Source of the DNA: a phage
Reading direction: 5' to 3' (one strand)
Length of the DNA: 44,581 nt
Sequence record: PZ445532.1
Shown here: piece by piece, positions 5,300 through 43,545 of the stretch
Layout of the letters: the number at the start of each line of letters is the position of its first letter
How positions within the stretch are numbered: the first letter of the stretch is position 1
The notes under the pieces: model-generated
Told to the model about the DNA's origin: nothing
Database searches by the model: none
Seen by the model: only the letters and a program-made list of their open reading frames with translations
Made by a program: the position numbers and the translations under genes

Positions 5300-5818
5300 C
5301 TACAAACGCATCGGCATGATAACAAGGAAGGCACCGCCTTTGAACAGCACACGTGTCGCCTTGTCTACTCCCTGAAATTCCAGTTTTAAGCTATCAAACT
5401 TACGGTCGAACAATTTAGCAATTTTGCAGGCGTCGGACAGGTATACCCCGGCAAACCCTATAGCCTCCACTTTAGCGCTGTCGAAAGACGTAACACGACG
5501 CCAGTCTGGGAATCTGCCGTCTATGATCTCTACGGGTATGGTACCGATTAATACGTCTTTACTATCAAAGAACGCAGCGGATGTGCCGTCTATGTTGCAG
5601 TATTCGAATTTTGTAGGTAAGCGGCCTTTAATTGCTACTATTTTACTTTCACCTTCGGGAACAACCGCGGACCCGCAGAACAAACGATGACCGTCGGTGG
5701 CCACGATGAATCCTTTCTCGTCGAAAAATACACCATTCAGATAGTACCGCACGTCATTAGTTGCGGCGCACATCATAGCGGCTTTAAGATCGGCATAGTT
5801 AACTTTAATCATTGTCAT
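5300..5818 (-). CDS. truncated beta-sliding-clamp (DnaN) homologue, domain II plus C-terminal segment
   Basis: 172 aa from MTMIKVNY (internal start of the 5300..6259 ORF, RBS GAGGAA). Contains DVRYYLNGVFF, ATDGHRL, DGRFPDWRRV and C-terminal VIMPMRL. These match the conserved E. coli DnaN blocks DVRYYLNGMLF, ATDGHRLA, DGRFPDYRRV and C-terminal VVMPMRL (recalled from memory). Confidence 0.7.
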   Translation of the reverse strand: MTMIKVNYADLKAAMMCAATNDVRYYLNGVFFDEKGFIVATDGHRLFCGSAVVPEGESKIVAIKGRLPTKFEYCNIDGTSAAFFDSKDVLIGTIPVEIIDGRFPDWRRVTSFDSAKVEAIGFAGVYLSDACKIAKLFDRKFDSLKLEFQGVDKATRVLFKGGAFLVIMPMRL

Positions 5819-5960
5819 TTCCTCATGTTGGTGTGCAACCAATATACTGCAACCAACATACGCAATGCAAGCGAATTTTGCGATTATTTTTATCACTGAT
5901 AATATTAGAGGCGTGAAGTCGAGCGGGTGGCCCGCTCTGCCACAATCCCAGGGGGATAGC

Positions 5961-6662: not shown

Positions 6663-6666
6663 GCAA

Positions 6667-11429: not shown

Positions 11430-11742
11430 AAGCGGGACAGGCGGGACGTCCCGTTTTGTCCCGCACCTCTAAAACTGCATATTTACCCACTTACATTGCA
11501 TAAATTAAAAGCGGGACAGGGTGCTGTCCCGATCTATCCCACCCTCAAAATGTGAATATCTATTCTGTTTTCGTGCATAAAGTAAGCGGGACAAAAAGCG
11601 GGACAAACAGGAGGCGGGACAAAGCGGGACAGCACCCTGTCCCCGCCAGTGCTGCCGCGGGTTTTAGCCGATCGGGACAGGCGGGACAAAGCCCAGTCTT
11701 TCAGACTAGACGGGGGTCAATGGCCCCCCTCGTCTGAGACTG
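11430..11742. repeat. non-coding module: GCGGGACA(G) repeat array, inverted repeats and 51-bp conserved hairpin element (copy A)
   Basis: At least 8 copies of GCGGGACA in a 380-bp gap, several paired with CTGTCCC as hairpins. Ends with a 51-bp sequence (11692..11742) identical to 39840..39890. Confidence 0.85.
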
Positions 11743-21892: not shown

Positions 21893-21973
21893 GGTATCAT
21901 CTCCTATATTTGGTTGGGTTTTAGTATTGCACCGCTCAACCAAGAATGCAACCAATTTTATGAGGATTCAGCT

Positions 21974-23734: not shown

Positions 23735-23740
23735 GGCTAA

Positions 23741-23761
23741 GGGGCCATACGGCCCCTTTTT
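23741..23761. terminator. rho-independent terminator between convergent genes
   Basis: GGGGCC-ATAC-GGCCCC followed by TTTTT. Confidence 0.8.
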
Positions 23762-24335: not shown

Positions 24336-24377
24336 TGTGGGTCCCTCATTGCTGCGGGCCGAAGCCCGCGATTAGAA

Positions 24378-24932
24378 TTATTTAAGTGCGCCAGTCACCA
24401 GTGTTTTTTCCATGTTGCGGAAATCTTCCTGCGTCATGCAGATTTTCGATCCGTCTTCGCCGGTGAGCACGACCGTAGGCTGGAATTCTTGGCCTGCAAT
24501 GCCGAACTTAGCGGCTTTAACCATCTTGCCGAACGAGGCCACCGTATCTTCTGCAACGCGAATTGCGCTGTTATACGCATTAATCTCGCCGTCAAGACGC
24601 ACGGACAGATCTTTTAGGCTTTCAAACTGTTCTGCCGTTGTATCGATCTGAATCTCGTCATGCACGGTCATGTAAGACTCGCCCAGCAGGGCGGCATACG
24701 CTACCAGGTCAACGATGTTATCTTCCTGGTGCTTACGGTGCTGGCGCACCAGCTTCAGGCAGATCAGGAAGGTCCAGGCTTCTTGCTCGGACAGGTCGCG
24801 CCCGGTAAGCGCGTTAAACACGGCGGCGATCTGTTTAGCGCTGCGTTCTTCTTTCGCGTTGTCATAGCCGTTTTCTTTCCCGCGCTGTTCCATAGTGGTA
24901 GCGGCGTTTTTGCAGTATTCGTATGCTTTCAT
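24378..24932 (-). CDS. hypothetical protein
   Basis: 184-aa ORF. N-terminal block RGKENGY...IAAVFNALTGRDL...LKLVRQHR looks like a conserved phage domain of unknown function. Confidence 0.55.
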   Translation of the reverse strand: MKAYEYCKNAATTMEQRGKENGYDNAKEERSAKQIAAVFNALTGRDLSEQEAWTFLICLKLVRQHRKHQEDNIVDLVAYAALLGESYMTVHDEIQIDTTAEQFESLKDLSVRLDGEINAYNSAIRVAEDTVASFGKMVKAAKFGIAGQEFQPTVVLTGEDGSKICMTQEDFRNMEKTLVTGALK

Positions 24933-24996
24933 GATGTTTTCCTTTTTAGTGGGAGGCGGTATTGCCTCCCGATGTGGTTAAGATACTGCAACCAAC

Positions 24997-25467
24997 CTAT
25001 TGGTTGCAAGTGAATTTTGCAACGTTTATTGCGTAAATTTTCGGGACTAAATCGCCGCACGCCCGACGAATTGCCGCGATGTTCTTCGGACAGTCTTCAA
25101 TGATGACCAGTTCCGATACGTCCGCATAGCAGACCATTTTGAACACAGCGCACGCCTTAAACTCTGGCGGCGGGGTATCGTCCAGCATGTGGCGCATAAA
25201 CAACCGGCCTGTAGGGAATACTTCCAGTTGTTCGGCGGTGGTGTCCCAACATTCTCGCTGCCGGTTGGTCAGATACGCGATCTCGAAGCCTTGCTCTTTG
25301 TACATGGTCAGCAGCAGCAGCATATCCATGTTAAGGTCTTCGCGGACGTGCGCCTTGTGCCACTTCGCCCAGAAGGTGGATTTAGTTTTTATACCCGGCA
25401 CCAGGTCGGCACGCGCATCGCTTGAACCGTTAATAACTCCATCCAAATCGCAAATCAGTAATTTCAT
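24997..25467 (-). CDS. HAD-superfamily hydrolase (putative phosphatase/nucleotidase)
   Basis: N-terminal LICDLDGVI matches HAD motif I (DxDG). Confidence 0.55.
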   Translation of the reverse strand: MKLLICDLDGVINGSSDARADLVPGIKTKSTFWAKWHKAHVREDLNMDMLLLLTMYKEQGFEIAYLTNRQRECWDTTAEQLEVFPTGRLFMRHMLDDTPPPEFKACAVFKMVCYADVSELVIIEDCPKNIAAIRRACGDLVPKIYAINVAKFTCNQ

Positions 25468-25688
25468 TTTAGGCTCTCAATAAGGGTGGCTCGGGCGCTA
25501 CGCGCGGTGTAAGAGTTGCACACGAAATGACAACGTCGGGTCATGACAAGCCAACCGGTGAGGTCAAGGCCCAGGATGTATTCGGGGCGAGACGCGCGCA
25601 CCACACGATCGCGGCGTGGGTCGATGTTATAGTCTTTTTGCATTTGGTCTACGACCGCGTGGTTGCGGTCAACGATTAAGATATTCAC
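25464..25688 (-). CDS. hypothetical protein
   Basis: 74-aa ORF with overlapping start and stop relative to its neighbours. Confidence 0.45.
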   Translation of the reverse strand: MNILIVDRNHAVVDQMQKDYNIDPRRDRVVRASRPEYILGLDLTGWLVMTRRCHFVCNSYTARSARATLIESLK

Positions 25689-26154
25689 GTAGTTCTCCTT
25701 CGCTCATTATTTCAATTTGTGCGCTGCCGATGGGCGGCGCTTCGTCAAATATTATTAATTGCTGGCACTTGTTATTGCTCGGCCCGACTTCGCCGGTGAC
25801 GGCGTGAATGAATCTAATCCGCCAGTCCAGAAGAATTATCAGGTTTGCAGTCTTCCGGGCCAGCCTCGCCCACTTCGTCGACGTATCCTGATTCAGTAGC
25901 ATGACAGTCCGGCGTCCGTGCGCTGCGCACTCGACCCACGGCAGCGGATCGGAATACGGCGGGTTGCACCACTTCCACCCTTTCAACTCTGACCAGTCCA
26001 CCTCAAGCGCGCTGTGCTCTGCCGTGAAGTAACGCGGTAGCAGATGGTTGGCGTCGCTCGCCGCCATGTCGTAACGGAATCGGTACTTCCGACGAAGCGG
26101 TTTAAATAAAGCTGGCGGCGTGCACCAGCTATCCTTTTGCTCACTCTTCTGCAT
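25669..26154 (-). CDS. DNA N6-adenine methyltransferase (phage Dam family)
   Basis: WCTPP near the N-terminus and the catalytic NPPY motif (KWCNPPYSD). Confidence 0.8.
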   Translation of the reverse strand: MQKSEQKDSWCTPPALFKPLRRKYRFRYDMAASDANHLLPRYFTAEHSALEVDWSELKGWKWCNPPYSDPLPWVECAAHGRRTVMLLNQDTSTKWARLARKTANLIILLDWRIRFIHAVTGEVGPSNNKCQQLIIFDEAPPIGSAQIEIMSEGELREYLNR

Positions 26155-26599
26155 GATCTGGGTCTATCGCGTACAGGGCAATCTTTTTATTACTGTTTAG
26201 AACGCGTTGCACGCGCTTTGATTCCTCGGTGCCAAGCGGTCGGCAGTCGGAGTAGTAAGACCCGTTTGCACGCCACGCTATACGCACCAGTCCTTCCCGC
26301 GGGATCGAAGACTGGCGGCCTTTGGGGCGCACGTACTCCTCGGCGCGTTTACAATGTTCACGCAGACCTTCGGCAGTGATGCGGTTTAGTGCAACGCTGG
26401 TGGTGTATCCGGTGCGCTGCATAATCCCCATCAACTCGAAAAGCAGTTCGAAGCGTTCCTCTAACTCCATGCGACGCTTTTCTTCCGTTTCATAGCTTGA
26501 CAGGTAGGTATCTGCCAGCGCGTTCGCACGTTCGGCCTTTTCACGGGCTTCGAGGCATTGCGCGGCCCAGTATGCTTTTTCTTCTTGTAAAATTTTCAT
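26141..26599 (-). CDS. hypothetical protein
   Basis: 152-aa ORF, RBS GGAGA. Charged, coiled-coil-like N-terminus. Confidence 0.5.
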   Translation of the reverse strand: MKILQEEKAYWAAQCLEAREKAERANALADTYLSSYETEEKRRMELEERFELLFELMGIMQRTGYTTSVALNRITAEGLREHCKRAEEYVRPKGRQSSIPREGLVRIAWRANGSYYSDCRPLGTEESKRVQRVLNSNKKIALYAIDPDHAEE

Positions 26600-26680
26600 C
26601 GTGTCGTCTCCAGGTATTAAAAAGGGCGTCCAAACCGGACACCCTCAATATAATGCGACCAAGCCTATTATGCAACCAAA

Positions 26681-27493
26681 CTATTCATAGTGGCTAAACG
26701 CCTCGCACGACTCCGTACACGATCCGGTTTCATATTGTTTCATCGACCGCATTCGTGAGGCCAACTCGTCACGGCCTACTCCGTCGAATAAGGCTATAAC
26801 CTCGTTCAGTGTGTGCTTCCCTCGGTACATAGTTTGCACTTTCAGCCGGTTGTTGTTAGTGATTAACATGTTGATAAATTGGTCTTTTAGTGCCGGCTCG
26901 TCCATGCAAGCCAGCGCCACTTTCGGCAGCGACTTCTTAATACAGAACACGCAGTTGCCGAGGTGTTCTTGTATTCCTAAGTCGAACGGCTGGCCCGCCC
27001 ACCAGTCAAGAATATCTTGCTTTTCATAATCGCTAATGTCGGCCAGGTAGTGGAATCCATCCCGCGGCTTAATTCTTTTAGGCTCGTCCGCGCGCATACC
27101 TAACCAAGTTTCATAATTACCTTTGCCGTATCGCTCCTCGCAGTATTTAGTAAACGGGACGGTTTTCATGCGGTCGGTGCAGAACGCGCCCCCGACGTAT
27201 GGGTGCCCGTATTTGCGAACCATGCGCCGCCACGGCTCTAAATCTGGCCCGATTTGCTCCTCCGTTAGTACCTCATACCGCCCGGGCTTGCCCATTTCGG
27301 GGTCTGGCACTGCGCGTAGGAATGTTATGCGCCACCCCCAATGTTTGATTATGTCGCGCACAAACTGATATGTGGCAGGGTGTTCTGCGCCCGTATCCAT
27401 GAAAATAATTTCAGCGTGGGGATGGAGTTTAAGCACCTGTTTTGTCATGTAGGCGGATGTACGTCCGCCTGAAAAACTTATAATCTGTTTCAT
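26681..27493 (-). CDS. PAPS reductase-like / PP-loop ATP pyrophosphatase family protein
   Basis: N-terminal PP-loop ISFSGGRTSAYM (SGGxxS). C-terminal cysteines ETGSCTESCEAF. 270 aa. Confidence 0.7.
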   Translation of the reverse strand: MKQIISFSGGRTSAYMTKQVLKLHPHAEIIFMDTGAEHPATYQFVRDIIKHWGWRITFLRAVPDPEMGKPGRYEVLTEEQIGPDLEPWRRMVRKYGHPYVGGAFCTDRMKTVPFTKYCEERYGKGNYETWLGMRADEPKRIKPRDGFHYLADISDYEKQDILDWWAGQPFDLGIQEHLGNCVFCIKKSLPKVALACMDEPALKDQFINMLITNNNRLKVQTMYRGKHTLNEVIALFDGVGRDELASRMRSMKQYETGSCTESCEAFSHYE

Positions 27494-27500
27494 TATTGAT

Positions 27501-27824
27501 TTATCCGTAAAAATTCGGGTCGCGTGCGACGTCTACCAGATACAGGTTACTCATGCGATTGCCGTAGTGACCCGGTGTGCGCTGGCGGCACACAACGGCG
27601 AAGCCTGGAGGGATTGTATTGCCCGTCTCGATAATCCACGCCACGCGTGCGCCGGATAGCGTCTTGCCGTTGTATTCGATACGTGTTCCACCATCGGCAG
27701 TGTTAAGGTTGCCAATCTTGCATCCGGTGGACTTCAGACGGACGACTCCGGTTTTGCTGTCGTAGGTGAATAGCTGGTTAGTCATTGCGACCGAAAAATC
27801 GATTGGTTCGTATATAGCGTTCAT
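27501..27824 (-). CDS. hypothetical protein
   Basis: 107-aa ORF. Confidence 0.5.
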   Translation of the reverse strand: MNAIYEPIDFSVAMTNQLFTYDSKTGVVRLKSTGCKIGNLNTADGGTRIEYNGKTLSGARVAWIIETGNTIPPGFAVVCRQRTPGHYGNRMSNLYLVDVARDPNFYG

Positions 27825-28051
27825 TTTAAATTTTCCTCGTTAACCGCTATCGCGAAGCCGCGCGGAGTGAGCGACCGGATTAATTTTGTGCGGGCGGATT
27901 TGCCTCCGAGGCGACTATACTGTTTCGAGTACCCTTTTTCAACGAAAACAGGTTTCTTCTCTGGCATACGGGAGCCGTAGCACTTATGCCCCATCTCGGC
28001 AGCACGCTCAATCATCAAGCCGCTGCCGTCAAATAATGACCAGATAATCAT
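27821..28051 (-). CDS. hypothetical protein
   Basis: 76-aa ORF. Its ATG overlaps the helicase stop (ATGA). Confidence 0.45.
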   Translation of the reverse strand: MIIWSLFDGSGLMIERAAEMGHKCYGSRMPEKKPVFVEKGYSKQYSRLGGKSARTKLIRSLTPRGFAIAVNEENLK

Positions 28052-29472
28052 TTGCGCGCCTTTTTAGCTTTCATGTATTCCATCAAGTCGTCCTGAATAT
28101 CGCGCTTACTGTCGCGACGCTCGGCGACCAATTCATCCAGTGTGCCACGCGCCTGGATAATGTAGACGAATACCGGACGAGGGTGTCCGGCTTGCATCTG
28201 GCGAACCGGCCCGATACGCTCCACAATCTGCGAAAAATGCTCATAGTTCCAGGTGTCGGAGAAGATGGCAAGGTGGTGTCCGCCATCCTGCAAGTTAAGG
28301 CCGTGACCCGCCGATGCCGGGTGCGCGAACATGATGGGGATCTCGCCCCTGTTCCACGCCTCCATGTCTTTATTGCCCTGCTTACCTTTACCCAACGCAA
28401 CGCCGTGCGGAAATTTCTTCTTGAGACGCGCAAGATCATGCTTGTACTGGTACGCGACGAGCAACGGTGCGCCGTTCAACTCCTCCACGATACTTTCCAG
28501 CGCGTCCAGCTTAGCGTCGTGAATCTTCACCCATTCGTCGGTGCGCTCACCGTCTTCGTCCACCTTATACACGGCCCCGGAAGCAAGCTGAAGGCACTTG
28601 ATAGTCTTCGACGCAGCGTTCGCCGCCTCCACTGTTCCGCTTTCCAGTTCCGCAAATAGCTCCGCTTCGAACTGGTCATAAATCTTGCGGGCTTTCTTCG
28701 GCAGGTCCACAACAACCGGCGTATATATTGGCTTGTCACATCCGAAATATTCAGCCGCATCAACGGTTAGCGACACGTCTGACAGGCGTTGTTGTATTTC
28801 TTTCTCGGAGTTTTTTAGCGGGGCGTGCTGCATAGTGAAGCTACCAGGCTTAACAGGCTTGCTAATAAACCAGCGGTCTGTGAATGCCTTATAGCTACTG
28901 CCGAGGCGTTCGCCACCGTCGATAAACCACGTCTGACCCCATAGGTCTTTCAGTCCGTTTGGTGCGGGTGTGCCAGTTAGGTTAATCCAGCGCTTTACGC
29001 GCTTGTGTGCGATCGCGGCCAGGGCGCGGGCGCGCTTACTGCCCTGCTTGCTGCGGTAGCCTTTCAGCTTAGTGGATTCATCGGCAACAACGACCGTAAA
29101 GGGCCACTCGTCGCCGCAATACTCGACAAGCCACTCAACCACATCATAGTTAACGCAAACCACGTTAGCGTCGCTCTCGAGCGCCGCGATGCGGTCCTTC
29201 TCTGGCCCAGTGCCGTCTACTACCAGCAGGGCTGGGAAACGCCATTTCTCCTGCTCCGGGGGCCATGTACCGGACGCAACGCGAAGCGGGGCCAGCACCA
29301 GTACGCGGTCCTCCTGGCTGGACAGGATACCAGTCTGGAACATTTTATTCAGCGCCCACATAGTCGCGCCGGTTTTACCCGACCCCATTGTCGCCCATAT
29401 ATTGCATCGCTTATGCTTGAGTATGAACGCGGTTATCAACTTCTGATATTCGCGACGTCGGAAACGTGCCAT
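28048..29472 (-). CDS. SNF2/superfamily II DNA helicase
   Basis: 474 aa from MARFRRREYQ. Walker A ATMGSGKTG, DExx box VVVADESTKLK, C-terminal helicase-domain-like motifs. VRR-NUC gene close by, as is common in phages. Confidence 0.8.
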   Translation of the reverse strand: MARFRRREYQKLITAFILKHKRCNIWATMGSGKTGATMWALNKMFQTGILSSQEDRVLVLAPLRVASGTWPPEQEKWRFPALLVVDGTGPEKDRIAALESDANVVCVNYDVVEWLVEYCGDEWPFTVVVADESTKLKGYRSKQGSKRARALAAIAHKRVKRWINLTGTPAPNGLKDLWGQTWFIDGGERLGSSYKAFTDRWFISKPVKPGSFTMQHAPLKNSEKEIQQRLSDVSLTVDAAEYFGCDKPIYTPVVVDLPKKARKIYDQFEAELFAELESGTVEAANAASKTIKCLQLASGAVYKVDEDGERTDEWVKIHDAKLDALESIVEELNGAPLLVAYQYKHDLARLKKKFPHGVALGKGKQGNKDMEAWNRGEIPIMFAHPASAGHGLNLQDGGHHLAIFSDTWNYEHFSQIVERIGPVRQMQAGHPRPVFVYIIQARGTLDELVAERRDSKRDIQDDLMEYMKAKKARK

Positions 29473-29476
29473 ATCT

Positions 29477-29710
29477 TTATTCCGCCTTTTTCCAGACTTC
29501 GGTTTCACTGTTCCAGTTCCTTTTTGTGGCGTCGTAGTTGGTGCTGTGCCCGATGTGCACACCTGTCGCCCGGAAGCGCTTAAACTTCTGCCAGCACACC
29601 GTCAACGGCAGCGGGGAATTAATGCCAGCAATAAACCATACGCGATCGCCTGGTTTACATTCGCCCAGCTTGGTGAGTCGGTAATGTTCTTTCATCGTCA
29701 TGTCTCCCAA
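29477..29710 (-). CDS. hypothetical protein
   Basis: 77-aa ORF preceded by hairpin GGCGGG-ACAAG-CCCGCC. Confidence 0.45.
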   Translation of the reverse strand: MGDMTMKEHYRLTKLGECKPGDRVWFIAGINSPLPLTVCWQKFKRFRATGVHIGHSTNYDATKRNWNSETEVWKKAE

Positions 29711-29738
29711 AAATGGCGGGACAAGCCCGCCGTATTAA

Positions 29739-29912
29739 TTACTTTTGCTCTGCGCGGTAGCGGCGCTGCCGTTCGCGCTCTTTTTTATTGCGGCACGATT
29801 TGCACTCTGCCCGATACCCATCCGGGCTTCGCGCAGTCTTGCCGGTGTATTTGTGGAACTGGGATAGCGGTTTAACGCAGCCGCAATTACTGCAACGTTT
29901 TTCTTCAATCAT
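29739..29912 (-). CDS. small zinc-ribbon protein
   Basis: 57 aa from MIEEKRCSNCGC...CKSC (RBS GAGGA 9 nt upstream). Two CxxC pairs. Confidence 0.4.
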   Translation of the reverse strand: MIEEKRCSNCGCVKPLSQFHKYTGKTARSPDGYRAECKSCRNKKERERQRRYRAEQK

Positions 29913-29952
29913 TTCTAAAATCCTCGGTAGAGCTAACCTGCTCACTATACTG

Positions 29953-30231
29953 TTAAGCGACCAATTCAGCAACCAATAAATCACAGTCGGCTATGTTGTC
30001 GATGACGCGAACGTCAGCACCACGGCGGGCCATTCGCTCATGTTCTCGTACCTGGTGCGGCTTCGGTTTGCCACCAGGGCGCTTAACTTCGACGAAAACT
30101 ATCTTGCCGTTGATGATGATAATAAGATCGGGCGCACCTGCGCGCCCCTCCCAAGCCACTTTACGGCAGAATCCGCCGACGGCTTTCACCCGTCTCATCA
30201 AGAGACTTTGAATCTTGCCTTCTGGTGTCAT
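29953..30231 (-). CDS. VRR-NUC domain nuclease
   Basis: 92 aa. GAPDLIIIINGKIVFVEVKRPGGKPKPHQ matches the VRR-NUC PD-(D/E)xK core. Confidence 0.75.
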   Translation of the reverse strand: MTPEGKIQSLLMRRVKAVGGFCRKVAWEGRAGAPDLIIIINGKIVFVEVKRPGGKPKPHQVREHERMARRGADVRVIDNIADCDLLVAELVA

Positions 30232-33034: not shown

Positions 33035-33058
33035 CTATTAAAAAGCCCGCATTAAGCG
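33035..33058 (-). terminator. rho-independent terminator (minus strand)
   Basis: On the minus strand AGCCCGC-TTAAT-GCGGGCT followed by TTTTTAAT, directly after the SSB gene stop. Confidence 0.6.
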
Positions 33059-33081
33059 GGCTTGAATAGTGGGCTTTGCCC

Positions 33082-33807: not shown

Positions 33808-33897
33808 TTTCCAATTCCTCATTTTCACATGTATCGGGGTTATTGGAAGCCACCCCGTTCGGCTTGGTTGCTAATCTACTTGGTTGCGCCTGAGCGG

Positions 33898-36015: not shown

Positions 36016-36043
36016 TAAAAAGAGGCCCGCAGATTAGCGGGCC
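36016..36043 (-). terminator. rho-independent terminator (minus strand)
   Basis: On the minus strand GGCCCGC-TAATCT-GCGGGCC followed by TCTTTTT, directly after the stop of the acidic first gene. Confidence 0.6.
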
Positions 36044-36567: not shown

Positions 36568-36908
36568 GGTATATCTCCGATTGGTTAAGTTTAGGTGTCG
36601 GCAGTTAACTTCGTCGGTGGCCTTAACATAGTGCCTGGTTACGCGTTCTCCCGTTCGGGTAGTGGACCAGGTTATATAATCACGGTTGGGAATCCTGACA
36701 CTTCGATCCGGCCCCTGCGTTGCCCCTCTCCAGTTTGCGTCCTGCATCCTGTCGACGGAGTGAATAATAGATTGGTTGCAGAAGGGAGTCAACAACTAAT
36801 TTAAAAAAAAAGCGCCGAGGCAAAATGCAACGGCGCTAACCAATAAGAGACAATGAGACGGGATTTATTATTACACGCGTGCGCGCCCGTTTCAATATTC
36901 CAGAGGAG

Positions 36909-36954
36909 TTGACACCCCGCGGTTTTAGGTGTAGTTTCGTTGGTCATTAACCAA
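36909..36954 (+). promoter_or_regulatory. sigma70-like promoter with palindromic operator in front of the HTH gene
   Basis: TTGACA (36909..36914), 17-bp spacer, TAGTTT (36932..36937). Palindrome TTGGT-CATTA-ACCAA (36940..36954) just upstream of SD GAGGG. Confidence 0.45.
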
Positions 36955-36968
36955 CTGAGGGCAGGGCA

Positions 36969-37298
36969 ATGAATATCAACGACGCAATCGAAATGTTAAC
37001 GAAGACTGTTTGCAGTGAGACAAGCCGGTCATGGGCGTATACCGATGCCGTGGGGGCGGTGCTATTTGAGATTGAACGTCTGCGCAGTGTAGAAAAAGAA
37101 TTACGCGCCAGGCTGGAATTGCTCAACGGTACGGCGGCGAGCAAGCTGCAGAAGCACAATGAAGAAATGGAAGAATACAAAAAGCAGGTTATACGTTTGC
37201 GCGCCGAGGGAAAATCCTGGGCGATGATTGCCGAGTTGACTGGGATTAATCAGAGCACAGTGCGCTCCTGGGTACGCAATAATAAAACTTCTAAGTAA
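36969..37298 (+). CDS. HTH DNA-binding protein (putative transcriptional regulator)
   Basis: 109 aa. C-terminal helix-turn-helix-like KSWAMIAELTGINQSTVRSWVRN. Confidence 0.6.
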   Translation: MNINDAIEMLTKTVCSETSRSWAYTDAVGAVLFEIERLRSVEKELRARLELLNGTAASKLQKHNEEMEEYKKQVIRLRAEGKSWAMIAELTGINQSTVRSWVRNNKTSK

Positions 37299-39573: not shown

Positions 39574-39690
39574 ATTCTGCGCGCATTGGTTGCCGATATG
39601 GTAATTCCCATATCGGTGAATGATTAAATTTTGCGCGCATTGGTTGCCATTTTGAGTGTTTTTACCTGGTCGTATTGGTTGCCGTGTAGT
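39574..39690. repeat. three direct repeats of GCGCATTGGTTGCC plus a perfect 9-bp inverted repeat
   Basis: TTGGTTGCC at 39586, 39640 and 39675. The first two copies sit in a 23-bp direct repeat TAAATT[CT]TGCGCGCATTGGTTGCC. Inverted repeat CCGATATGG-TAATTC-CCATATCGG at 39593..39616. Confidence 0.8.
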
Positions 39691-39724: not shown

Positions 39725-39890
39725 ATAAAGTAAGCGGGACAGAAAGCGGGACAGACCAGGGGCGGGACAAAGCGGGACAGCACCCCTGTCCCGCCCCGGA
39801 TGACGCGGCCTGGCGAGGAGCGGGACAGCGGGACAGCACCCCAGTCTTTCAGACTAGACGGGGGTCAATGGCCCCCCTCGTCTGAGACTG
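39725..39890. repeat. non-coding module: GCGGGACA(G) repeat array and 51-bp conserved hairpin element (copy B)
   Basis: AGCGGGACAG repeated at least 6 times. Hairpin GGGACAG-CACC-CCTGTCCC. The terminal 51 bp (39840..39890) are identical to 11692..11742. Confidence 0.85.
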
Positions 39891-40105
39891 CATAAAATCC
39901 AGGATGCACGACGCACGGCAGCATGATGCAAATTGCGGTCGTCGATGAACTAGGCAACCAATGCGAGTTGCAGAATGGTGGGTGGAAAATGCAGTTTGCA
40001 GTCACAGCAGATAGCGATCGACTTTTTCATGCGCGTGATTAATATTGGTTGCATTCGCCCTGGCACACTGCTATATTGGTTGCACACCAACATGAGGACT
40101 GAACA

Positions 40106-40420: not shown

Positions 40421-40690
40421 ATGGACCGCAGACGCGCAAAACGCCTTTCGTGGAGCATCCCACTGCATTGCATACGAATATGGGCTAAGAATGCGAATGA
40501 GGGCGATTCTGTGTTCTGGTGCTACCGCGATGATGTGAAGCCATTAACGCAGACTCGATACTTGCACCAGTTCGCAGCACAACATGATTTCAGGGTGCGG
40601 ACTTCCTTGCAACCAATGGGAATACGTATTACATTACGCCGGAAGCCCGCCGTTGAGCGGGTAGGCAAACACTGGAGACTGAGCAAATGA
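40421..40690 (+). CDS. hypothetical protein
   Basis: 89-aa basic ORF. Confidence 0.5.
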   Translation: MDRRRAKRLSWSIPLHCIRIWAKNANEGDSVFWCYRDDVKPLTQTRYLHQFAAQHDFRVRTSLQPMGIRITLRRKPAVERVGKHWRLSK

Positions 40691-43481: not shown

Positions 43482-43545
43482 TTGCTTGACTTGCAACCAA
43501 CTATCAGACCATACTGCTACCAATCGACGAGAGGAGTATTACACT

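What the first reader, a model, noticed from the sequence alone, without database searches (positions are those of the whole stretch)
24338..29730. Stem-loops placed immediately upstream of ribosome-binding sites in the leftward operon
Several minus-strand genes are preceded by a GC-rich hairpin just 5' of their SD: 24340..24357 before the 24335 gene, 24940..24960 before 24932, 26619..26643 before 26599 (here followed by a T-tract, so terminator-like), and 29712..29730 before 29710 (this one contains a GCGGGACA unit). The repeated arrangement suggests mRNA processing or stabilising elements, or attenuators that set the relative expression of distal genes.
Basis: seen in the sequence. Interest (0 to 1): 0.35.

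Follow-up and report, generated by a model that had tools for sequence, protein, structure and literature searches.

The report
Phage operon terminators and mRNA hairpins
The four short GC-rich stem-loops between genes of this E. coli phage's replication operon are real and evolutionarily conserved, but they are ordinary gene-expression punctuation: two look like leaky transcription terminators and two like mRNA-protecting hairpins, and two of the four sit directly behind internal promoters.

Summary
The window is a Dhillonvirus (HK578-like E. coli siphophage). All four hairpins exist on the minus strand, but two sit 10-12 nt from the coordinates given. True positions are hp1 24369..24354, hp2 24970..24951, hp3 26644..26624 plus U5, and hp4 29731..29715 plus AU5. 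They are not chance. 13 of 30 strong perfect hairpins lie in the 5% of the genome that is non-coding (P=6e-10). Across about 29 related genomes the stems vary far less than loops or flanks (P about 6e-8). A more distant relative keeps hairpins at the hp2 and hp3 positions with different stem sequences. The set is mixed. hp3 and hp4 are intrinsic-terminator-like, as are two more at 33063 and 36043. hp1 and hp2 have no U-tract. hp2 and hp3 directly follow conserved sigma70-like promoters carrying a TTGGTTGCA motif. The predicted start site puts hp2 at the 5' end of its transcript, like a stabiliser. For hp3 the predicted start falls inside the terminator's 5' arm. hp4 ends a promoter-gene-terminator "moron" (Lar-like gene). 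Hairpin-to-start spacing of 13-24 nt reflects tight gene packing. No transcript data exist. The elements are new members of known kinds, of modest interest.

The parts
24354..24369 (-). hp1: GCGGGC-uucg-GCCCGC, a 6-bp all-GC stem with a UUCG loop and no U-tract. It lies 8 nt after the stop of the DUF6378 gene and 18 nt before ATG 24335.
   Evidence: -13.6 kcal/mol in context. The stem is invariant in 28 of 29 relatives while the loop (TTCG/TCTG/CGAA) and flanks vary. It is absent in L028, where the two genes overlap by ATGA.
24951..24970 (-). hp2: GGGAGGC-aauacc-GCCUCCC, a 7-bp stem with no U-tract, 18 nt before ATG 24932. It begins about 3 nt after the transcription start predicted for promoter P24987.
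   Evidence: -15.4 kcal/mol, z=-4.45 for the transcript from 24973. A hairpin is present in all 21 sequence variants, with stems of 5-7 bp. One pair covaries (GC 14, AU 3, GU 1). L028 has a different stem, CGGGGCGG/CCGCCCCG, at the same place.
24980..25009 (-). P24987, a sigma70-like promoter: -35 TTGCAA (25009..25004), 18-nt spacer, -10 TATCTT (24985..24980). It contains the inverted repeat TGCAACCAA-tagg-TTGGTTGCA.
   Evidence: Sequence. The motif is conserved in relatives and in L028. It falls below the threshold of the consensus scanner, so this is a prediction only.
26619..26644 (-). hp3: GGGUGUCC-gguuu-GGACGCCC plus U5, an intrinsic-terminator-like element 24 nt before ATG 26599.
   Evidence: RNAalifold gives 11 pairs. 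Two show compensatory changes, all one-sided changes are G.U-compatible on this strand, and no core pair is broken. The T-tract is 5-10 nt in all relatives.
26647..26679 (-). P26671, a sigma70-like promoter: -35 TTGCAT (26675..26670), 17-nt spacer, -10 TATATT (26652..26647). It is built from two direct copies, TTGGTTGCA and TTGGTCGCA. The predicted start, about 26640, lies inside the 5' arm of hp3.
   Evidence: Sequence. Invariant in relatives whatever genes flank it. The same layout occurs in L028 with another stem sequence. A transcript starting at 26640 folds to only -5.6 kcal/mol. Not flagged by the scanner.
29709..29731 (-). hp4: GGCGGG-cuugu-CCCGCC plus AUUUUU, a weak intrinsic-terminator-like element. 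It lies 3 nt after the stop of the Lar-like gene and 13-19 nt before the next start (ATG 29701 or 29695).
   Evidence: Flagged as terminator-like. Stem invariant, with one loop change. d-score -21, that is weak.
29944..29972 (-). P29968, a sigma70-like promoter: TTGCTG, 17-nt spacer, TATAGT. It carries TTGGTTGCT/TTGGTCGCT repeats and drives the Lar-like gene (29912..29735). Together with hp4 it forms a promoter-gene-terminator unit.
   Evidence: conserved in 15 sequence variants. The Bas84 record calls the gene a 'Lar-like restriction alleviation protein; moron'.
It follows the gp2.5-like SSB/annealing gene and lies 19 nt before ATG 33023, the small gene ahead of the DNA polymerase gene.
   Evidence: (z=-4.56). 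A terminator at the same gene junction occurs in other genera: L030, L032, L033, L056 and L039.
   Evidence: (z=-3.23), and (d=+11.9).
36803..36836 (-). A further terminator-like hairpin, GCGCCG...CGGCGC plus U9, just upstream of early promoter P36792 (TTGACT-17-TATTAT).
23739..23758 (.). Hairpin AAGGGGCC-n4-GGCCCCTT between the convergent leftward operon and the tail-fibre gene. It reads as a terminator on the plus strand and marks the end of the leftward operon.
   Evidence: An equivalent element is present in L028.

Best explanation
The four elements are RNA stem-loops that punctuate a 13-kb early/replication operon (about 36950 down to 23760) of a Dhillonvirus transcribed by host RNA polymerase. 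They belong to two known classes.

(1) hp3 and hp4, with hp5 (33063) and hp6 (36043), are weak-to-moderate Rho-independent terminators.
- They stop part of the incoming transcription and so step expression down along the operon. For example, many transcripts would cover the gp2.5-like SSB gene and fewer the DNA polymerase gene behind hp5.
- The stem left at each RNA 3' end would also protect the upstream message.
- hp4 closes a one-gene unit: promoter P29968, the Lar-like gene, then the terminator.
- Its stem starts only 3 nt after the stop codon, so a terminating ribosome should interfere with it. That would make termination leaky when the upstream gene is translated.

(2) hp2 and hp1 have no U-tract and should not terminate.
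- hp2 begins about 3 nt after the start site predicted for the conserved internal promoter P24987. It would therefore be a 5'-terminal stem-loop that shields the transcript from 5'-end-dependent decay (RppH/RNase E), as in ompA.
- hp1 is a very stable cUUCGg hairpin between the last two genes. It most likely acts as an intercistronic barrier to 3' exonucleases, or as a processing boundary, favouring the upstream DUF6378 message.

hp3 is a composite. The -10 hexamer of promoter P26671 ends 2 nt before the stem. Readthrough RNA therefore forms the full terminator. RNA started at the promoter, at about 26640, lacks the three basal G-C pairs and should read on into the next genes.

The closeness of every hairpin to the next SD (13-24 nt to the start codon, SD left unpaired) is a consequence of tight packing.

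Shown: the structures, their conservation, the covariation and their placement. Inferred: promoter activity, start sites, termination efficiencies and effects on stability.
For: - Identity and operon map.
- Hairpins and their energies.
- Intergenic enrichment, P=6e-10.
- Stems conserved relative to loops and flanks, P about 6e-8.
- hp3 has compensatory and G.U-only changes with no broken core pair.
- hp2 has one covarying pair, and a hairpin is kept in 21 of 21 sequence variants.
- L028 (helicase 80% identical) keeps promoter-plus-hairpin modules at the hp2 and hp3 positions with unrelated stem sequences.
- U-tracts are present at hp3 and hp4 and absent at hp1 and hp2 in all relatives.
- Terminator scores: hp3 +19.5, hp6 +11.9, hp5 about 0, hp4 -21, hp1 -43, hp2 -44. 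The post-capsid and post-tail terminators score +49 and +40.
- A terminator after the SSB/annealing gene is conserved in other genera.
- The promoter motifs are invariant although the genes on either side of hp3 differ between genomes.
- TTGGTTGCA occurs 11 times exactly, nearly always in promoter-like contexts.
- A transcript starting at 26640 folds to only -5.6 kcal/mol.
- Established knowledge, from memory: -10-to-start spacing of 6-8 nt; 5'-terminal stem-loops stabilise E. coli mRNA (Emory, Bouvet & Belasco 1992); REP hairpins stabilise upstream mRNA (Newbury et al. 1987).
Against: - No transcript-end or half-life data exist for any Dhillonvirus.
- The three internal promoters match the sigma70 consensus at only 8/12 to 9/12 positions. 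The consensus scanner did not list them.
- Start sites are inferred from spacing alone. A shift of a few nt would alter the hp2 and hp3 arguments.
- hp4 scores as a poor terminator. hp3 and hp5 are missed by the scanner, probably because its stem extension consumes part of the T-tract.
- hp1, hp4, hp5 and hp6 stems are nearly invariant, so they give no covariation. A conserved DNA palindrome would look the same.
- hp1 is dispensable in L028.
- The d-score formula was recalled from memory and used with modern energy parameters.
Confidence: 0.6

Rival explanations
1. All of the hairpins, including hp1 and hp2, are simply intrinsic terminators of graded strength that divide the operon into nested transcripts. 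Nothing is specific to 5' ends or to stability.
For: Same stem type (GCGGGC/GCCCGC cores) and same position relative to stop and start codons for all six. The operon clearly contains several canonical terminators.
Against: hp1 is followed by AGCAAUGAGG and hp2 by ACUAAAAAGG in every genome. Tail scores are 0.06 and 0.29, against 2.0-3.9 for the others. E. coli RNA polymerase normally needs the U-tract.
Confidence: 0.12
2. The conserved inverted repeats act at the DNA level. They could be palindromic binding sites for a phage or host protein, or recombination and module-boundary sequences, rather than RNA structures.
For: Arms are invariant while the centres vary, and several centres are exactly inverted between genomes (hp1 in StarDew, hp5 in L035, hp6 in L006/L035/L025). 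This shows the palindromes are active in DNA metabolism. hp3 sits at a mosaic junction where both flanking genes differ between genomes.
Against: - The six stems differ in sequence, so a single binding protein is unlikely.
- hp3 carries a conserved U.G pair, and all its one-sided changes give G.U on the transcribed strand only. These would be A.C mismatches in the other strand or in a DNA palindrome.
- L028 keeps the structures but not the sequences.
- U-tracts follow only on the transcribed strand.
Confidence: 0.08
3. The hairpins mainly serve translation. By locking up the sequence just upstream of each SD, they insulate the ribosome-binding site from pairing with upstream coding RNA, or they serve as operators for an RNA-binding translational repressor. 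This would set the translation rates of the downstream genes.
For: Constant spacing of 13-24 nt between hairpin base and start codon, with the SD always left unpaired in predicted folds. The same layout occurs in distant relatives.
Against: The spacing is equally explained by genome compaction. Four of the six have terminator U-tracts. No conserved loop sequence exists that a protein could read.
Confidence: 0.12
4. The terminators are targets of a phage antitermination system of the lambda N/Q type. They would block delayed-early genes until an early protein modifies RNA polymerase, giving temporal rather than stoichiometric control.
For: DNA polymerase and helicase lie behind terminators with no promoter in between. 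Small early genes of unknown function precede hp6.
Against: No N-, Q- or put/nut-like element was recognised (Rfam: no hits; Pfam: no hits for the early small proteins). The terminators score weak enough to be leaky by themselves.
Confidence: 0.08

Closest known systems
Leaky Rho-independent terminators inside phage operons (phiX174 TJ/TF/TG/TH; lambda tR1/tL1; terminators after major capsid and tail genes of siphophages)
   Same: A GC-rich 6-8 bp stem, a 4-6 nt loop and a U-tract, placed between cistrons of one operon. They are expected to grade transcript abundance and leave a protective 3' hairpin. This applies to hp3, hp4, hp5 and hp6.
   Different: Efficiencies here are unmeasured. hp3 overlaps a promoter. 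No antitermination factor is known for this phage.
5'-terminal stabiliser stem-loops (E. coli ompA 5' UTR; Emory, Bouvet & Belasco 1992, from memory; reviewed in PMC3997798, found but not read)
   Same: hp2 is a stable hairpin predicted to begin within about 3 nt of the transcript's 5' end, followed by an unstructured SD.
   Different: The 5' end is only predicted from a promoter motif. hp2 is also present inside readthrough transcripts coming from upstream.
Intercistronic stabilising hairpins (REP in malE-malF, Newbury et al. 1987; puf operon hairpins) - from memory
   Same: hp1 is a stable hairpin without a U-tract between two cistrons. It could block 3'-5' exonucleases and raise the upstream message relative to the downstream one.
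   Different: hp1 is 16 nt and unrelated in sequence to REP. It is a single copy, and no decay data exist.
Phage morons (promoter-gene-terminator cassettes of lambdoid phages, Juhala/Hendrix 2000, from memory)
   Same: P29968, the Lar-like gene and hp4 form a one-gene unit with its own promoter and terminator, inserted between replication genes. The Bas84 record labels the gene a moron.
   Different: The phage appears virulent, the promoter carries the phage's own TTGGTTGCA motif, and the cassette is fixed across the genus.
Coupled or overlapping promoter-terminator elements (bioRxiv 10.64898/2026.08.19.745784, 'Widespread coupling of promoters and terminators of transcription in bacteria'; only title and abstract start seen)
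   Same: At hp3 a terminator and a promoter occupy the same 60 bp at a gene boundary.
   Different: Here the promoter lies upstream of the terminator stem, and the predicted start falls inside the stem. I could not read the paper to compare geometries.
T7 early-region RNase III processing sites
   Same: Stem-loops between cistrons, just upstream of ribosome-binding sites in a phage early operon.
   Different: T7 sites are about 20-bp irregular duplexes, whereas these stems are 6-8 bp. That is too short for RNase III.

Membership tests
Intrinsic (Rho-independent) terminator | GC-rich stem of about 5-14 bp with a 3-8 nt loop on the transcribed strand, downstream of a stop codon | tested here: met
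   All of hp1-hp6 meet this.
Intrinsic (Rho-independent) terminator | A U-tract (at least 4-5 U within about 8 nt) directly abutting the 3' arm | tested here: met
   Met for hp3 (U5, up to U10 in relatives), hp4 (AU5), hp5 (U5 counting the stem end) and hp6 (UCU5). For hp1 and hp2 see the next row.
Intrinsic (Rho-independent) terminator (hp1 and hp2 only) | A U-tract directly abutting the 3' arm | tested here: not met
   The tails are AGCAAUGAGG and ACUAAAAAGG in all relatives. Tail scores are 0.06 and 0.29.
Intrinsic (Rho-independent) terminator | RNA 3' ends produced at the U-tract in vivo or in vitro | not testable with these tools
   No transcript data were found for the genus.
5'-terminal stabiliser stem-loop (ompA type) | The hairpin starts within about 0-4 nt of a primary transcript 5' end | tested here: inconclusive
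   A conserved promoter-like motif places the start at about 24973, 3 nt before hp2. L028 has the same geometry. The promoter falls below the scanner threshold and no 5'-end data exist.
5'-terminal stabiliser stem-loop (ompA type) | The hairpin lengthens mRNA half-life in an RNase E/RppH-dependent way | not testable with these tools
   Needs a rifampicin chase with stem mutants.
RNase III processing site (T7 type) | A duplex of about two helical turns (roughly 20 bp or more) | tested here: not met
   The stems are 6-8 bp, or 10-11 bp with weak terminal pairs for hp3.
Curated RNA families (Rfam: riboswitches, leaders, known phage RNA elements, REP-like) | A covariance-model match at gathering score | tested here: not met
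   No match anywhere in the window.
Leader-peptide or riboswitch attenuator | An alternative antiterminator pairing or a leader ORF upstream of the terminator | tested here: not met
   The gaps between stop and start codons are only 39-81 nt. Predicted folds show a single hairpin with no competing helix.
Moron (promoter-gene-terminator cassette) | A single gene flanked by its own promoter and terminator inside an operon | tested here: met
   P29968 (TTGCTG-17-TATAGT), the Lar-like gene 29912..29735 and hp4, conserved in relatives. The Bas84 record labels the gene a moron. Promoter activity itself was not tested.

The most novel reading that the evidence does not exclude
hp3 and hp2 would be parts of a portable, bifunctional boundary cassette, laid out as TTGGTTGCA repeats, then the -10 hexamer, then the hairpin. 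At hp3 the -10 hexamer abuts the terminator stem, so one element would do two jobs. It would terminate incoming transcription, and it would launch transcripts that lack the base of the stem and so escape termination while keeping a small 5'-terminal hairpin. The TTGGTTGCA repeats would be operators for the phage's sigma-region-4-like HTH protein (36969..37298). That would make these insulated, phage-controlled restart points, and they would also serve as recombination joints between gene modules.
Probability: 0.3. Interest if true: 0.45.

Novelty: new member of a known kind. Interest (0 to 1): 0.22.

Why it matters
If the predictions hold, they give a first transcription map for Dhillonviruses. 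This is a common E. coli phage genus in therapy collections and in the BASEL set. The map comprises seven or so promoter-like sites sharing a phage-specific motif, a series of leaky terminators that would set the ratio of SSB to polymerase to helicase, and two stabilising hairpins. The hp3 cassette would be a compact natural part that insulates and restarts transcription, which is useful for synthetic operon design. None of this changes current understanding of bacterial gene expression.

Tried and rejected
- Rfam scan of the whole window: no family matched.
- RNase III sites: rejected because the stems are too short.
- Classical attenuators with alternative pairing or a leader peptide: rejected because the gaps are only 39-81 nt and hold a single helix.
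- A link between hp4 and the GCGGGACA repeats: rejected. hp4 holds one isolated copy, which is within chance expectation, and the real arrays lie elsewhere.
- Single-sequence folding z-scores: uninformative for hp1, hp3 in context and hp4 (z about -1). Significance comes from placement and conservation instead.
- A promoter upstream of hp1: a GTGACT-16-TCTAAT match exists in the window, but its -35 is destroyed in Sloth, Zumzum and bov22_1. Rejected.
- A conserved 5'-UTR hairpin after P29968: present as 4 bp in the window but not kept in relatives. Rejected.
- The consensus scanner's hit at 26696..26667 (TAGCCA-18-CATAAT): its -35 is not conserved in relatives. I preferred TTGCAT-17-TATATT.
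- IMG/VR pattern search around hp2: only 6 loci. The helicase-based locus search was more useful.
- Literature: no description of Dhillonvirus promoters, terminators or transcriptomes. The 2026 preprint on promoter-terminator coupling could not be opened.
- Pfam scan of the small early proteins for an antiterminator: no hits.

Full report
**What the window is**

A 6.2-kb stretch around the finding matches 163 phage records. 128 of them match over at least 80% of its length, at 80-93% identity. Nearly all are Escherichia or Shigella phages of the genus Dhillonvirus (HK578/SSL-2009a-like siphophages).

Mapping the annotated proteins of phage Bas84 onto the window shows the layout:
- a rightward structural operon;
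- a leftward operon of about 13 kb (about 36950 down to 23760);
- a second rightward block starting at 36969.

The leftward operon encodes, in order:
- small unknowns, a PD-(D/E)XK exonuclease and a gp2.5-like SSB/annealing protein;
- DNA polymerase and a VRR-NUC nuclease;
- a Lar-like protein and an SNF2-type helicase;
- methyltransferase remnants and an HNH endonuclease;
- a PAPS-reductase-like protein and a 'ligase-like' protein;
- Dam, a HAD phosphatase/PNK-like protein, a DUF6378 protein and one more unknown.

The phage encodes no RNA polymerase in these annotations, so host polymerase is assumed.

**Checking the observation**

Reading the minus strand and folding each gap from stop to start codon confirms four stem-loops.

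| Element | Sequence | Position | What follows |
|---|---|---|---|
| hp1 | GCGGGC-uucg-GCCCGC | 24369..24354 | AGCAAUGAGGGACCCACA-AUG (24335) |
| hp2 | GGGAGGC-aauacc-GCCUCCC | 24970..24951 | ACUAAAAAGGAAAACAUC-AUG (24932) |
| hp3 | GGGUGUCC-gguuu-GGACGCCC | 26644..26624 | U5, then the SD GGAG and AUG 26599 |
| hp4 | GGCGGG-cuugu-CCCGCC | 29731..29715 | AUUUUU, then the SD GGGAGA and AUG 29701/29695 |

The other two are essentially right.

hp5 (33063..33043) and hp6 (36043..36024) each carry a U-tract. It also occurs behind the major capsid gene (7880) and the major tail gene (10712) on the other strand.

**Is it more than chance?**

- Single-sequence thermodynamics are weak evidence. hp1 and hp4 give z about -1, while hp2, hp5 and hp6 give z of -3.2 to -4.6.
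- The total number of strong perfect hairpins (at least 6 bp, at least 5 GC pairs) is 30, against 22 +/- 4 in dinucleotide shuffles.
- 13 of the 30 lie in the 5.0% of the window that is non-coding (binomial P=6e-10).
- I collected about 29 Dhillonvirus genomes or contigs and aligned six hairpin regions.
- 16 of 84 stem columns vary, and 11 of those 16 are in hp2. By comparison, 23 of 31 loop columns and 104 of 211 other intergenic columns vary (Fisher P about 6e-8 and 7e-8).

The hairpins are therefore selected features.

**Evidence that RNA structure is what is selected**

- hp3 contains a conserved U.G pair.
- Across eight distinct hp3 variants, RNAalifold finds 11 pairs. Two show compensatory double changes (C-G to U-A; G.U to C-G).
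- The one-sided changes are U-A to U.G three times, U.G to C-G once and G-C to G.U twice. All keep pairing on the transcribed strand only, and no core pair is broken.
- hp2 keeps a 5-7 bp hairpin in all 21 sequence variants. One pair covaries, with GC 14, AU 3 and GU 1, although three sequences break it.
- Contig L028 has a helicase 80% identical to the window's and the same gene order.
- L028 has hairpins at the hp2 and hp3 positions with unrelated stem sequences: CGGGGCGG/CCGCCCCG and AAGGCGUUCCA/UGGAGCGCCUU followed by AAUUUU.
- hp1, hp4, hp5 and hp6 stems are almost invariant, so they say nothing about covariation. L028 lacks hp1 altogether, because the two genes overlap there by ATGA.
- A terminator between the SSB/annealing gene and the polymerase block (the hp5 position) recurs in other genera whose polymerases are 37-65% identical. 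These are L030, L032, L033, L056 and L039, and the L039 stem differs in sequence.

**Two classes of hairpin**

hp3, hp4, hp5 and hp6 are followed by U-tracts in every genome. hp1 and hp2 never are.

I applied a d'Aubenton-Carafa-type score. The formula was recalled from memory and used with modern energy parameters, so it is only indicative.

| Element | Score |
|---|---|
| hp3 | +19.5 |
| hp6 | +11.9 |
| hp5 | about 0 (higher if the A-U end pairs are counted as tail) |
| hp4 | -21 |
| hp1 | -43 |
| hp2 | -44 |
| 7880 (late) | +49 |
| 10712 (late) | +40 |

The consensus scanner lists hp4 and hp6 but not hp3 or hp5. This is probably because its maximal stem extension uses up part of the T-tract.

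No promoter-like sequence lies between hp5 and the polymerase gene, or between hp4 and the helicase gene. Those genes must therefore be expressed by readthrough. This fits leaky terminators that grade expression. Antitermination is a less likely alternative, because no such factor or RNA was recognised.

**Promoters fused to hp2 and hp3**

Upstream of both hairpins lies a sequence that is invariant across the genus:
- TTGCAA-18-TATCTT (25009..24980) before hp2;
- TTGCAT-17-TATATT (26675..26647) before hp3.

Both are built around the 9-mer TTGGTTGCA. That 9-mer occurs 11 times exactly in the window and 25 times with one mismatch or fewer, against 11.4 +/- 3.2 expected. Almost every copy lies in a promoter-like context, in either orientation.

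These contexts include P29968 (TTGCTG-17-TATAGT, ahead of the Lar-like gene), P33901 (TTGACC-17-TAGATT, ahead of the SSB gene) and P36792 (TTGACT-17-TATTAT). All three are conserved in relatives.

Caution is needed. The three internal promoters match the sigma70 consensus at only 8-9 of 12 positions. The scanner did not flag them, and their activity is unproven.

Taking the usual spacing, with the start at about the 7th nt after the -10 hexamer (established knowledge):
- P24987 would start at A 24973, 3 nt before hp2. That transcript folds into hp2 alone (-15.4 kcal/mol, z=-4.45). This is the architecture of an ompA-type 5' stabiliser.
- P26671 would start at G 26640, inside the 5' arm of hp3 (26644..26637).
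- Such a transcript has lost the three basal G-C pairs and folds to only -5.6 kcal/mol (z=+0.6). It should not terminate.
- RNA arriving from upstream forms the full terminator.
- L028 shows the same abutment, with the -10 TAACTT one nt before the stem.

The hp3 module is kept intact although the genes on both sides differ among genomes. Upstream is HNH or the PAPS-reductase-like gene. Downstream is the 'ligase-like' gene or an extra small gene. It therefore marks a mosaic junction.

**hp4 and hp1**

P29968, the 59-codon Lar-like gene (29912..29735) and hp4 form a one-gene promoter-gene-terminator unit. The Bas84 record itself labels this gene a moron. hp4 begins 3 nt after the stop codon. A ribosome terminating there should cover the 5' arm, which would make termination translation-sensitive. 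This is an inference.

hp1 has the extra-stable C(UUCG)G loop. It lies in the last intergenic gap of the operon, with no promoter and no U-tract. An intercistronic barrier to 3' exonucleases, or a processing boundary, is the best available reading. It is also the least secure.

**Why the hairpins sit next to the SD**

The distance from hairpin base to start codon is 18-24 nt for most promoter-distal and promoter-proximal hairpins on both strands. For hp4 it is 13-19 nt, depending on the start codon chosen. The scaffold-capsid hairpin at 6665 is the exception, at 69 nt. The SD is unpaired in all folds. With 95% coding density, this is most simply explained by compaction. An added role in insulating the ribosome-binding site cannot be excluded.

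**Comparison with known systems and verdict**

The elements work like well-known devices:
- leaky intra-operon terminators (phiX174, lambda);
- 5'-terminal and intercistronic stabiliser hairpins (ompA, REP/malEF);
- a moron cassette.

They fail the tests for RNase III sites, Rfam families and classical attenuators. See the membership table for details.

I found no publication describing promoters, terminators or transcript maps for Dhillonviruses. These are therefore new members of known kinds.

The one mildly unusual point is the promoter-inside-terminator geometry at hp3. A 2026 preprint reports widespread promoter-terminator coupling in bacteria. I could not open it to judge how similar it is.

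The finding is of modest interest.

Noticed in passing
window 5834-5856, 21947-21955, 24987-25008, 26654-26679, 29959-29976, 33864-33888, 36772-36780, 40045-40084, 40608-40616, 43492-43523; TTGGTTGCC variants at 39586-39683 and 39953: The 9-mer TTGGTTGCA (or its complement TGCAACCAA) occurs 11 times exactly. Copies usually come in pairs 11-31 bp apart and sit inside -35/spacer regions of promoter-like sequences on both strands. It looks like a phage-specific promoter or operator motif.
   Followed up: partly
window 36969-37298 (+): This is the first gene of the rightward block. It is variously annotated in relatives as transposase, resolvase or Gam. It has a C-terminal helix-turn-helix matching HTH_23 and sigma-70 region 4. 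It is a candidate binder of the TTGGTTGCA motif.
   Followed up: no
window 11432-11688 and 39734-39835: There are two arrays of GCGGGACA(G) units, 8 and 7 copies, some forming hairpins such as GCGGGACAGcacccCTGTCCCGC. Both regions also match the same small Bas84 proteins (hyp19/hyp54), so they are paralogous segments. They could be iterons or an origin.
   Followed up: partly
relatives: L004 (hp1), L035 (hp5), L006/L035/L025 (hp6), compared with window 24360-24363, 33051-33055, 36031-36036: In some genomes the hairpin loop is the exact reverse complement of the loop in the window (TTCG to CGAA; TTAAT to ATTAA; TAATCT to AGATTA), with the stems unchanged. This is the signature of loop inversion by intrastrand template switching at inverted repeats.
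   Followed up: partly
window 26681-27493 and 27821-28051 (-): The window carries a PAPS-reductase-domain gene between HNH and the hp3 module, which Bas84 and UHP65 lack. Its C5-cytosine methyltransferase is reduced to a 76-codon remnant that matches only the two ends of the relatives' gene.
   Followed up: partly
window about 5810-5850 (-) and about 40065-40100 (+): An identical 27-nt promoter/5'-UTR segment, TATATTGGTTGCACACCAACATGAGGA, precedes two different genes on opposite strands. The minus-strand one drives an ORF (about 5790..5300) that is absent from Bas84.
   Followed up: no
window 36803-36836 (-): A strong terminator-like hairpin (GCGCCG...CGGCGC plus T9) overlaps the last codons of the annotated 48-codon ORF 36947..36801. 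It lies immediately upstream of early promoter P36792. This casts some doubt on that ORF, or it marks a very short first transcription unit.
   Followed up: no
window 33835-33857 (-): A conserved hairpin, CGGGGU-11 nt-ACCCCG, lies about 12-15 nt downstream of the start predicted for P33901, ahead of the SSB/annealing gene. Its loop varies among relatives while the stem does not. This is a third promoter-then-hairpin case.
   Followed up: partly
L028 4438-4506: In the more distant relative, a 22-codon hydrophobic mini-ORF (MPYWLAILITTVAVLGTSYVGY) lies between the hp2-like hairpin and the DUF6378 gene.
   Followed up: no
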